This document shows positions 2,190 through 2,967 of a stretch of 6,045 nucleotides of DNA, piece after piece. A program made the translations under genes and the position numbers. Every line of letters begins with the position of its first letter. Within the stretch, counting starts at the first letter, position 1. The stretch comes from a virus. Its lineage: Duplodnaviria > Heunggongvirae > Uroviricota > Caudoviricetes. The notes beneath the pieces are model-generated. The model had not been told where the DNA came from, did no database searches, and saw only the letters and a list, made by a program, of their open reading frames with translations. The DNA is taken from IMG/VR virus record IMGVR_UViG_2671180755_000006; one strand, written 5' to 3'.

Positions 2190-2753
2190 ATGACTGAATT
2201 AACCAAAGAATGGCTACAGAACACGATTACCGGAATTGAGTCATCACGGGATGAAATACCGTTCGGACTCGATGAAGATCAAAACAACATGCTTACCGCA
2301 TTAAAAATTGCACTGGCATCACTGGCATCAGTATCGGATGAACGGGCAGCCTATGAATTATTTATGGAGAAGCGTTTCGGGGAATCTGTAGATCGCCGCA
2401 GAGCAAAAAATGGCGATAGAGAATACATGGCATGGGATATGGCGCTTGGCTGGATTATCTGGTGTCACCGCGCCGCCATGCTTCAGGCTGGAAACTTTCG
2501 GGAAAATAAGGGTTCGTCAACCAATAATTTTCGGATAATCTCGGAAACGTCAACCAACTCTCCGGCAATCCCTGATGAGGTGTTGTCCGCAATCCTGAAG
2601 GTCGCCAGGCTTCGTGCAGATTTCGATGCTTCTGAAGTGGACAGGCGAGGTATCGGTAGTTGTCTGGATGAGGCCGAGCAAGAACTTATCGTTACCATTA
2701 ACGAATACGCCAGTCAGATCGCAGTAGAAGCGACACAGGGGGAGAACCAATGA
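2190..2753 (+). CDS. hypothetical protein, 187 aa
   Basis: ATG 2190; TGA at 2751-2753 overlaps the next ATG (2750). Low-complexity Ser/Thr/Asn linker in the middle (NKGSSTNNFRIISETSTNSP). No motif recognised. Confidence 0.7.
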   Translation: MTELTKEWLQNTITGIESSRDEIPFGLDEDQNNMLTALKIALASLASVSDERAAYELFMEKRFGESVDRRRAKNGDREYMAWDMALGWIIWCHRAAMLQAGNFRENKGSSTNNFRIISETSTNSPAIPDEVLSAILKVARLRADFDASEVDRRGIGSCLDEAEQELIVTINEYASQIAVEATQGENQ

Positions 2754-2827
2754 GCCGGCCAGATGCATTTGCAGGCGTTGCTATAGCTATTGCTTTTCTA
2801 GTATATGTTATTTGTCGGTGGGGGTAA
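2750..2827 (+). CDS. mini-ORF for a 25-aa hydrophobic peptide (MSRPDAFAGVAIAIAFLVYVICRWG), single predicted transmembrane segment
   Basis: ATG 2750 preceded by AGGGGGAG (2735-2742); ATGA overlap with the upstream gene. Below the 60-aa cutoff of the ORF track and found by manual translation. Confidence 0.45.
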   Translation: MSRPDAFAGVAIAIAFLVYVICRWG

Positions 2828-2862
2828 AAACGTTCGCCGGGATTCACACCAAGGGAGGGAAT

Positions 2863-2967
2863 ATGTCGGATGATATTTCACTGGTAATGGAAGGCGCTCT
2901 GGCTGTTATTGCTGTTGTGGGTGTTTACTGCCTGGTTGTGTTTTTGATGGAGCGCCTGGGGAACTGA
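2863..2967 (+). CDS. mini-ORF for a 34-aa peptide (MSDDISLVMEGALAVIAVVGVYCLVVFLMERLGN), acidic N-terminus plus one hydrophobic helix
   Basis: Strong SD AAGGGAGGG (2851-2859) just upstream of ATG 2863; TGA at 2965-2967. Found by manual translation. Confidence 0.55.
   Translation: MSDDISLVMEGALAVIAVVGVYCLVVFLMERLGN

What the first reader, a model, noticed from the sequence alone, without database searches (positions are those of the whole stretch)
2750..2967. Two tandem unannotated mini-ORFs for single-helix hydrophobic peptides, just upstream of hok/sok
A 25-aa and a 34-aa ORF each have a good SD and each encode one hydrophobic helix. Both are below usual ORF-calling thresholds and absent from the ORF track. 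Peptides of this type include type I toxins, holin-like or membrane-depolarising peptides and membrane-protein modulators. Two of them next to a hok locus is unusual.
Basis: partly seen in the sequence, partly recalled or inferred. Interest (0 to 1): 0.6.

Follow-up and report, generated by a model that had tools for sequence, protein, structure and literature searches.

The report
Two prophage membrane microprotein genes
The two tiny reading frames upstream of hok/sok in this E. coli O157 prophage are real genes for single-helix membrane peptides: one is already annotated and shown to be translated, and the other belongs to a widespread 27-residue family that genome annotation misses.

Summary
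ORF1 (2750-2827, 25 aa) and ORF2 (2863-2967, 34 aa) are the only ORFs in the window that combine ATG, a Shine-Dalgarno match and one hydrophobic helix. Shuffled windows give 0.008 such ORFs each.

Both are protein-coding by comparative evidence: synonymous changes far exceed non-synonymous ones in the claimed frames only, indels are in frame, and start, stop and RBS persist while flanks diverge.

"Unannotated" is half wrong. ORF2 is ECs_2755 of Sakai prophage Sp14, and published Ribo-seq shows it translated in the lysogen.

ORF1 is unannotated in every RefSeq and phage record examined here. It belongs to a family (M-x-W-P-E/D-A-F…C-R-W-G) whose DNA occurs in 1632 of 5426 complete E. coli genomes and in about 90 phage records, including 933W. 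Its ATG overlaps the upstream gene's stop (ATGA) behind at least five upstream C-terminal types.

"Unusual next to hok" is wrong. All 101 evaluable ORF2-like sites have a hok locus directly downstream, and about half of the ORF1 copies do.

No toxin, holin, defence or RNA family matches. There is no antisense partner, and ORF2 is well translated in growing cells. I therefore read them as non-lethal accessory membrane microproteins of unknown target.

The parts
2190..2753 (+). Upstream gene (187 aa, ECs_2756). Its last codons carry the SD for ORF1, and its TGA stop (2751-2753) overlaps the ORF1 ATG.
   Evidence: PHROG hits of unknown function only.
2738..2744 (+). Shine-Dalgarno sequence GGGGGAG for ORF1, 5 nt before the ATG and inside the upstream gene.
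   Evidence: An SD-like purine run is kept in all upstream contexts: GGAGGTG, GGAGGAT, AGGGGAT, GAAGGTG.
2750..2827 (+). ORF1: a 25-aa single-helix membrane microprotein, and a 2-codon-shorter member of the 27-aa M-x-W-P-E/D-A-F…C-R-W-G family. It starts with an ATGA start/stop overlap.
2853..2859 (+). Shine-Dalgarno sequence GGGAGGG for ORF2.
   Evidence: It is invariant in all variants, including the divergent copy L087 whose spacer is otherwise diverged. Huecker et al. give an SD dG of -6.4.
2863..2967 (+). ORF2: a 34-aa single-helix membrane microprotein (ECs_2755 / WP_001278460.1), translated in the lysogen.
2974..2998 (+). Near-perfect palindrome/hairpin (most relatives have CGATATGGGAATTCCCATATCG), 7 nt after the ORF2 stop and just upstream of the hok promoter. 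No U-tract follows it. It travels with the MSDD-type ORF2 cassette.
   Evidence: dG -12.8 kcal/mol, z -3.3. It is absent where hok follows ORF1 directly and beside the ML-type ORF2.
3008..3035 (+). Inferred hok promoter (-35 TTGCTG at 3008-3013, -10 TAGAAT at 3030-3035).
   Evidence: My reading. Its position fits the start of the Rfam sok/hok-leader match at 3042. The consensus scan did not call it.
3042..3366 (+). hok/sok type I toxin-antitoxin locus (mok start 3154, hok start 3211). Positions 3238-3346 are masked as N in the window.

Best explanation
Both mini-ORFs are real protein-coding genes of a lambdoid prophage (Sakai Sp14, in the region between the replication genes and Q). Each encodes one membrane-spanning helix. 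They belong to two separate, unrelated microprotein families.

ORF1 is a member of a 27-residue family (this copy has lost two codons). Its start codon overlaps the stop codon of whatever gene lies upstream (ATGA), with the SD inside that gene's last codons. It is therefore most likely made by translational coupling (termination-reinitiation) as the last small cistron of an early transcription unit.

ORF2 initiates independently at a strong, unstructured RBS and is translated in uninduced lysogens.

I infer that both insert into the inner membrane and act as non-lethal accessory (moron-like) microproteins that bind a larger host or phage membrane protein. Examples would be tuning a transporter or sensor, or blocking superinfection. 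I do not think they act as Hok-like killers.

Shown: the ORFs exist, selection acts on the protein frame, hydrophobic helices are predicted, the families are distributed as described, ORF2 is linked to hok, and ORF2 is translated. Inferred: membrane insertion, the coupling mechanism, lack of toxicity, and the modulator role.
For: Existence is beyond chance.

ORF2 coding evidence:
- It is intact in all 26 unique DNA variants from 94 loci.
- Window versus the divergent gut-metagenome copy L087 gives pS 0.46 against pN 0.14 in the claimed frame, while the other + frames give pS about equal to pN.
- The antisense frame that shares its wobble positions contains no ORF of 20 aa or more.
- A distant homologue, P0035/L095, keeps the C-terminal half (AVVAIYCLVVVLMDRLSD) through mostly third-position changes.
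- Published Ribo-seq for ECs2755 in LB: transcriptome 132.6 RPKM, translatome 885 RPKM, ribosome coverage value 6.79, coverage 0.95 (PMC5597208 S2 Table).

ORF1 coding evidence:
- It is intact in 21 of 22 unique variants.
- The 25- versus 27-aa difference is an in-frame 6-nt indel.
- pS 0.82 against pN 0.18 versus L087.
- tblastn finds full-length homologues in 93-99 phage records.
- A pattern search that allowed any spacing from 40 to 56 nt between the N- and C-terminal motifs returned 125 copies at 51 nt and 1 at 45 nt, with none out of frame.
- The 54 unique DNAs have entropy by codon position of 3 > 1 > 2 (0.81, 0.50, 0.25). Frame 0 has no stops, while the other frames have stops in 51-54 of 54.
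- The ATGA overlap holds behind at least five upstream C-terminal types: the DUF551 type ending …PEPPQEVNQ, …ISVEDVLR, …NIEQEVNR, …KKKGMNQ and …EATQGENQ.
- The family DNA occurs in 1632 of 5426 complete E. coli genomes.

Helix.

Non-lethality of ORF2: high translation in growing cells and no structure over the RBS (z 0.52).
Against: There is no direct evidence for translation of ORF1. The Sakai Ribo-seq study only considered ORFs of 93 bp or more (tables; nothing listed at the ORF1 coordinates).

The antisense frame across ORF1 is also open and shows the same wobble signal. It lacks an SD, however, and its GTG start is GTT in many variants.

One contig (L043) and one deposited protein (P0005) carry single-base frameshifts in ORF1. 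The commonest DUF551-linked variant has an Asp inside the helix.

The charge of the ORF2 N-terminal flank differs between subfamilies (-3 versus +1), so topology may not be conserved.

Sakai has four related copies, so some Ribo-seq reads may be multi-mapped.

No binding partner, phenotype or localisation is known, so the modulator role is inference only.
Confidence: 0.6

Rival explanations
1. ORF2 is functionally part of the hok/sok module. It would be a third, protein component, for example a membrane partner that buffers or potentiates Hok, or a gene whose transcription feeds into the hok promoter region.
For: All 101 evaluable ORF2-like sites have a hok locus 210-260 nt downstream, or hok interrupted by an IS. 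This holds for two divergent subfamilies, the MSDD-type and the ML-type. The ORF2 stop lies only about 10-45 nt from the hok -35. No ORF2-family member was found anywhere else among 1.84 billion representative proteins.
Against: hok/sok modules that are 89-98% identical work in the same phage contexts without ORF2: 933W, L100, and PPompW, where a paa/adfO insertion deleted ORF2. The linkage can be explained by descent within one narrow E. coli prophage lineage. My locus set was selected through ORF1 or ORF2, so it is not an unbiased sample.
Confidence: 0.15
2. One or both peptides are membrane-damaging toxins: type I toxin-like, holin-like or depolarising.
For: Their size and single hydrophobic helix resemble TisB, Ldr, Hok and similar peptides (my own knowledge of those families). 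They sit next to a known type I toxin locus. A sigma-70-like match exists on the minus strand inside ORF1 (2828 to 2800).
Against: No match to Hok/Gef or any other Pfam, NCBIfam, PHROG or PADLOC family. No RNA family match at 2750-2967. The minus-strand promoter match is within chance (3 found against 1.4 expected), and by my reading it is not kept in ORF1 homologues with different codon usage. ORF2 is translated at high efficiency in exponentially growing lysogens from an unstructured RBS. ORF1 is coupled to ordinary early genes. Neither gene lies in the lysis cassette, which follows Q and the tRNAs.
Confidence: 0.12
3. The region is conserved as DNA or RNA (a recombination 'linker' at a mosaic joint, or upstream control sequence for hok), and the ORFs are incidental.
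For: Mosaic breakpoints cluster exactly at the ORF1 start. The DNA from the ORF1 3' half through ORF2 is nearly invariant among the E. coli copies. A short repeat, AAAACG(G)TT, flanks the ORF2 cassette.
Against: In divergent copies the substitutions fall at synonymous sites, and the ORF1-ORF2 spacer diverges while the SD, start and stop persist. ORF1 homologues keep the peptide with very different DNA and in places with no hok nearby. ORF2 shows ribosome occupancy.
Confidence: 0.04
4. The real gene at the ORF1 position is the antisense ORF (2698-2847, 49 aa).
For: That frame is open in all variants and shares the wobble positions, so it shows the same pS > pN pattern.
Against: It has no SD. 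Its GTG start is GTT in many variants. Its C-terminal part runs into unrelated upstream genes in different contexts. It is opposite in orientation to the whole operon. The conserved ATGA and SD architecture serves only the sense ORF.
Confidence: 0.02

Closest known systems
Hok/Gef family type I toxins (Pfam PF01848) with Sok antisense RNA, the neighbouring locus
   Same: Small, prophage-borne, with one N-terminal hydrophobic helix. ORF2 is always physically adjacent to hok.
   Different: No sequence similarity. The peptides are 25-34 aa against about 50 aa, and they lack the Cys-containing periplasmic tail. There is no mok-like overlapping leader frame, no Sok-like RNA and no folded, translationally silent mRNA. 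ORF2 is freely translated.
Bacterial small membrane-protein regulators (MgrB, AcrZ, MgtS, KdpF, PmrR, CydX; from my own knowledge)
   Same: Fewer than 50 aa, a single transmembrane helix, often missed by annotation. They act by binding a larger membrane protein, which is the mode of action I infer here.
   Different: No homology. These two are phage-borne rather than core-genome genes. No partner has been identified.
Phage 'moron' and superinfection-exclusion membrane proteins (for example HK97 gp15, T4 Imm; from my own knowledge)
   Same: Accessory prophage genes expressed in the lysogen (ORF2) that encode small membrane proteins. Mosaic distribution among lambdoid phages.
   Different: Those proteins are larger and unrelated in sequence. 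No exclusion phenotype has been tested, and no own promoter or terminator has been demonstrated for ORF2.
Translationally coupled cistrons with ATGA start/stop overlap (termination-reinitiation; cited as Nat Commun 10:4006 in the reference list of PMC11188072)
   Same: The ORF1 family always has the ATGA overlap, with an SD inside the upstream gene.
   Different: Here the coupled cistron is a 27-codon gene that moves between at least five upstream C-terminal types.
Annotated short gene ECs2755 and the intergenic small genes of E. coli O157:H7 Sakai (Huecker et al. 2017, PMC5597208)
   Same: ORF2 is ECs2755, listed there as translated, predicted inner membrane with 1 TM, and classed as 'real'.
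   Different: That study gives no function, does not report the hok linkage, and could not assess ORF1 because it is under 93 bp.

Membership tests
Hok/Gef type I toxin (PF01848) | Sequence match to the Hok/Gef profile | tested here: not met
   Pfam and NCBIfam scans of both peptides found no Hok/Gef hit at E up to 1.
Hok/Gef type I toxin (PF01848) | Overlapping leader ORF (mok) and cis-antisense Sok-like RNA covering the translation start | tested here: not met
   The Rfam sok model matches only 3042-3216 and nothing in 2750-2967. The only minus-strand promoter-like site (2828 to 2800) is within chance expectation.
Type I toxin in general | Toxicity on expression, with translation kept off in growing cells | tested here: inconclusive
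   Published Ribo-seq shows ECs2755 (ORF2) highly translated in LB (RCV 6.79) from an unstructured RBS, which argues against this. Toxicity itself cannot be tested with these tools, and there are no data for ORF1.
Holin / antiholin | Located in the lysis cassette downstream of Q/pR' with endolysin and spanin genes | tested here: not met
   Both ORFs lie upstream of hok, DUF968, RusA and Q. The tRNAs and late region follow at positions above 5850.
Holin / antiholin | Match to a known holin family | tested here: not met
   No Pfam or PHROG lysis-category hit.
Single-pass small membrane protein (generic class) | One hydrophobic helix of 15 or more residues, with total length under 50 aa | tested here: met
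   Hydropathy calculation. AF2 models a single helix, residues 2-33, for ORF2. Huecker et al. predict 'inner membrane, 1' for ECs2755. Actual membrane insertion was not tested.
Protein-coding gene (ORF2) | Purifying selection in frame, plus ribosome occupancy | tested here: met
   pS 0.46-0.50 against pN 0.11-0.14. Intact in all variants. Ribo-seq from the literature.
Protein-coding gene (ORF1) | Purifying selection in frame, with frame-preserving indels only | tested here: met
   Ribosome occupancy is not available.
Known anti-phage defence components (PADLOC) | Profile match | tested here: not met
   only a chance-level Cmr5 hit, E 0.027, 13 bits.

The most novel reading that the evidence does not exclude
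The ORF2 family may be an unrecognised protein component of a subset of prophage hok/sok modules. It would be a membrane microprotein that physically or regulatorily partners with Hok, for example by setting the threshold for Hok-mediated membrane damage during prophage induction. Separately, the ORF1 family may be a mobile 'tail cistron' that lambdoid phages attach by ATGA coupling to the end of many different early genes, including directly against the hokW promoter of Stx phage 933W.
Probability: 0.12. Interest if true: 0.7.

Novelty: new member of a known kind. Interest (0 to 1): 0.4.

Why it matters
Small membrane proteins are systematically under-annotated. ORF1 illustrates this: DNA of its 27-codon family occurs in about 30% of complete E. 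coli genomes, with up to 7 copies per genome. It is present in Stx phages, including 933W and VT2-Sakai, and no RefSeq or phage record examined here annotates it.

In 933W the family member ends 6 nt from the inferred -35 of the hokW promoter. Deletions or reporter constructs made around hokW-sokW may therefore have removed or included an unnoticed gene.

The strict ORF2-hok linkage gives a cheap, testable question about whether some hok modules have a third component. If neither peptide has a phenotype, the result is still a useful annotation correction, though an ordinary one.

Tried and rejected
- **Family scans.** Pfam, NCBIfam, PHROG and PADLOC scans of both peptides and several variants gave nothing significant.
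- **Rfam.** The whole window gave nothing at 2750-2967.
- **Short query.** I used the 51-aa TTG-extended frame instead. I reject that extension as the real start, because the extra N-terminal part is not conserved in L087 or L091.
- **Species-representative genomes.** A protein-pattern scan for ORF2 found no relative. A strict DNA pattern for ORF1 found only E. coli and Shigella flexneri.
- **ORF1 alignment scan.** The search for related loci with the ORF1 alignment failed because no stretch was conserved enough. I replaced it with a DNA pattern.
- **Klebsiella phage hits.** tblastn hits to ORF1 have E values of 4-7 and were discarded.
- **Fusion to DUF551.** ORF1 peptides fall in a 90% cluster with 121-aa DUF551 proteins, which looked like a fusion. 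Those proteins do not contain the peptide, so it is a clustering artefact.
- **Frameshift fusion.** There is no slippery heptamer before the ATGA (my reading).
- **ORF1/ORF2 paralogy.** No convincing alignment by eye.
- **Literature.** Searches for ECs2755 and the peptide strings in main texts found nothing relevant. The CFT073 small-protein preprint has no supplements held.
- **Promoter for ORF2.** The consensus scan found no plus-strand promoter, so why ORF2 transcript levels exceed those of upstream genes in the lysogen remains unexplained.

Full report
**Where the window comes from.** The stretch 2700-3000 is 100% identical to E. coli O157:H7 Sakai prophage Sp14 (NC_002695.2) and to many other O157 and STEC chromosomes. 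The gene order is replication protein P, DUF1627, several hypothetical genes, the two mini-ORFs, hok/sok, a rem-like gene, DUF968, RusA, antiterminator Q, then tRNAs. This is the accessory region of a lambdoid prophage between the replication genes and Q, and every gene is on the + strand.

**The observation.**
- ORF1 runs 2750-2827 (25 aa). Its SD, GGGGGAG, lies 5 nt upstream, and its ATG overlaps the TGA of the upstream 187-aa gene (ATGA).
- ORF2 runs 2863-2967 (34 aa), preceded by GGGAGGG.
- Each has one hydrophobic segment of 17 residues, with Kyte-Doolittle means of 2.66 and 2.95.
- AlphaFold2 models ORF2 as a single helix, residues 2-33, pLDDT 89.5.
- They are the only two ORFs on either strand of the window that combine ATG, an SD core, 20-50 codons and such a segment. 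500 dinucleotide-preserving shuffles averaged 0.008 per window and never produced a tandem pair.
- hok/sok follows at 3042-3366 (Rfam sok, 114.9 bits).

**Annotation status.** ORF2 is annotated in the original Sakai record (ECs_2755, NP_310782.1) and by PGAP (WP_001278460.1 and close variants) as a hypothetical protein. ORF1 is not annotated in any RefSeq or phage record I opened. A few submitters have deposited 27-aa homologues as hypothetical proteins, for example ASL59204.1.

**Is ORF2 coding?**
- Across 94 loci (26 unique DNA variants) ORF2 is always intact. Most differences are third-position changes, and one is a TGA-to-TAA stop change.
- Against the most divergent full copy, the gut-metagenome contig L087, the claimed frame gives pS 0.46 and pN 0.14. 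The other two + frames give pS about equal to pN.
- The antisense frame that would share the wobble signal contains no ORF of 20 aa or more.
- The spacer upstream of ORF2 is heavily diverged in L087, yet AAAGGAGGGAATATG is kept.
- A profile search of 1.84 billion representative proteins found only 12 hits. One is a distant 30-aa relative (P0035, MLAALKGFVAILAVVAIYCLVVVLMDRLSD), whose DNA differs from the window mainly at synonymous sites.
- Huecker et al. 2017 list ECs2755 among translated short genes. In LB they report 132.6 RPKM RNA, 885 RPKM footprints, a ribosome coverage value of 6.79 and coverage of 0.95. Their predictions are 'inner membrane, 1 TM' and 'real'.

One caveat applies: Sakai carries four related copies, so some reads may be shared.

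**Is ORF1 coding?**
- It is intact in 21 of 22 unique variants. The exception, L043, has a 1-nt deletion at codon 2.
- The window's 25-aa form differs from the usual 27-aa form by an in-frame 6-nt deletion.
- Against L087, pS is 0.82 and pN is 0.18 in frame, with pS about equal to pN in the other + frames.
- tblastn with the 27-aa form hits 93-99 phage records over its full length, including 933W, VT2-Sakai, VT1-Sakai, BP-4795, Min27 and ArgO145.
- In each record inspected, the ATG overlaps the stop codon of the annotated upstream gene and the mini-ORF itself is unannotated.
- I searched for the N-terminal motif (ATGA NN TGG CCN GAN GCN TTY) and the C-terminal motif (MGN TGG GGN stop) with any spacing from 40 to 56 nt. 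This gave 125 copies at 51 nt, one at 45 nt and none out of frame.
- The 54 unique DNAs show entropy by codon position of 3 > 1 > 2 (0.81, 0.50, 0.25). Frame 0 has no stops, and the other frames have stops in almost every sequence.

The antisense frame over ORF1 is also open and shares the wobble signal. It has no SD, and its GTG start is GTT in many variants. It also runs into unrelated upstream genes, so I reject it. Direct evidence of ORF1 translation is missing, because the Sakai study set a 93-bp minimum.

**Family anatomy and distribution.** The ORF1 family consensus is MTWPEAFxxVGxAMAVALVVYSICRWG. P4, A6, F7, G11, R25 and W26 are invariant in the eight-sequence alignment A3, and W3 is nearly so. 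Its DNA occurs in 1632 of 5426 complete E. coli genomes, at 3103 places, with up to 7 per genome and 163 on plasmids of about 90-100 kb. PGAP does not call it. Among one genome per species, a strict pattern found it only in E. coli and Shigella flexneri.

The upstream gene varies. Its C-terminus can be the DUF551 type ending …PEPPQEVNQ, a family ending …NGLISVEDVLR, a coiled-coil Ea22-like type ending …NIEQEVNR, an EaA type ending …KKKGMNQ, or the window's …EATQGENQ. The ATGA overlap and a purine-rich SD in the last codons are always there. Mosaic breakpoints sit at or a few codons before the ATG.

What lies downstream of ORF1 in 125 copies:

| Downstream element | Copies |
|---|---|
| hok promoter directly | 36 |
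| ORF2 cassette | 20 |
| Intrinsic-terminator-like hairpin | about 30 |
| Another gene | about 22 |

ORF1 is therefore typically the last small cistron of its unit. In 933W the homologue is MTWPEAFANVGTVMAVVLVVYSICRWR. It ends 6 nt before the inferred -35 of the promoter for the studied hokW-sokW locus.

**ORF2 and hok.** Of 117 ORF2-like sites in all loci held, 98 have a hok CDS 210-260 nt downstream. Another 16 sit too close to a contig end to judge. The remaining 3 have the hok locus interrupted by an insertion sequence at the hok SD. So 101 of 101 evaluable sites are next to hok.

This holds for two divergent subfamilies: the MSDD-type, which carries the palindrome, and the ML-type, which does not. 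The reverse is not true. hok/sok modules that are 89-98% identical occur with ORF1 only, with a terminator and spacer, or with only the last four ORF2 codons left after a paa/adfO insertion. hok does not need ORF2. Whether ORF2 needs hok is open.

**What they are not.**
- Neither peptide matches any family in Pfam, NCBIfam, PHROGs or PADLOC.
- No RNA family matches at 2750-2967.
- No antisense promoter exceeds chance.
- The region is not in the lysis cassette.
- ORF2 is efficiently translated in exponentially growing lysogens from an RBS with no unusual structure.

These points speak against a Hok-like, tightly silenced toxin.

**Best explanation.** These are two independent, real microprotein genes of lambdoid prophages. 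ORF1 is expressed by coupling to whichever early gene precedes it. ORF2 is expressed on its own, including in the lysogen. Both most likely sit in the inner membrane as single helices and act by binding a larger membrane protein. I put the coding status at about 0.9 (ORF1) and 0.95 (ORF2), and the modulator mechanism at about 0.35-0.4. The main rival worth testing is a functional tie between ORF2 and hok (0.15). The toxin reading gets 0.12, and the non-coding and antisense readings get 0.05 or less.

**Verdict.** The finding is real, but much of it is already explained (ORF2) or is a recurrent architecture rather than an oddity. The added value has two parts: an unannotated, widespread 27-aa gene family coupled by ATGA overlaps, and the strict linkage of ORF2 to hok. 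Novelty: new members of a known kind (phage-borne small membrane proteins). Interest: 0.4.

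Noticed in passing
window 2974-2998: A near-perfect palindrome (CGATATGGGAATTCCCATATCG in most relatives; one base is missing in the window) lies 7 nt after the ORF2 stop and about 10 nt before the hok -35. It folds as a stable hairpin (-12.8 to -15.4 kcal/mol, z about -3.3) with no U-tract. It could be a protein-binding site or an RNA 3' hairpin. It persists in PPompW prophages where ORF2 itself was deleted.
   Followed up: partly
window 2826-2840 and 2995-3010: A short imperfect direct repeat (AAAACGTTCGCC / AAAACGGTTTGC) flanks the ORF2+palindrome cassette. In 933W-type loci ORF1 is followed directly by AAACGGTTTGCGGG (the hok -35 region). ORF2 therefore looks like a cassette inserted into, or deleted from, an ORF1-hok junction.
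   Followed up: partly
L008, L058, L192 (about 240 nt downstream of ORF2): The hok locus is interrupted by an insertion-sequence end (TGTATGGGTCCACC…) exactly at the hok Shine-Dalgarno (GGCAAGGAGA|TGTATGG) in three independent contigs with two different ORF2 alleles.
   Followed up: no
L094 (Stx2a phage/PPompW, 1400-1520) and L091 2600-3000: A paa/adfO (SBP_bac_11) gene sits where ORF1 and ORF2 would be. PPompW keeps only the last four ORF2 codons (RQVN*). L091 keeps a full ORF2 but no ORF1. Together they look like stages of replacement by a virulence-associated insertion.
   Followed up: partly
window 3238-3346 and 4837-4870: Two runs of N mask most of the hok coding sequence and part of the RusA-like gene in the window. 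The unmasked sequence is available in L001 and L002.
   Followed up: no
window 5655-5739: Weak Rfam hits to isrK/isrJ and to leader-peptide families (E 0.1-0.7) overlie a strong terminator (AAAACCCGCCCACAAGCGGGTTTTTTTG) just downstream of Q. This is probably the pR'/tR' region. Two tRNA genes follow at 5857-5929 and 5940-6013.
   Followed up: no
PMC5597208 S2 Table (ECs2755 against ECs2758 and ECs2760): In the uninduced lysogen, ORF2 RNA (133-168 RPKM) is 15-20 times higher than the short genes upstream (7-9 RPKM). This implies a promoter somewhere between them, or multi-copy mapping. The consensus scan found no plus-strand promoter in 2100-2860.
   Followed up: partly
P0005 (74 aa) and L043: Single-base indels in T/A runs of ORF1 either fuse the ORF1 N-terminus to ORF2 (P0005) or break ORF1 at codon 2 (L043). 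These could be sequencing errors or real inactivation.
   Followed up: no
clusters 4 and 5: The 90%-identity clusters that hold the mini-peptides also contain unrelated long proteins (121-aa DUF551 proteins; a 789-aa xanthine dehydrogenase from Stappia). This is a clustering artefact that could mislead annotation transfer for very short proteins.
   Followed up: yes
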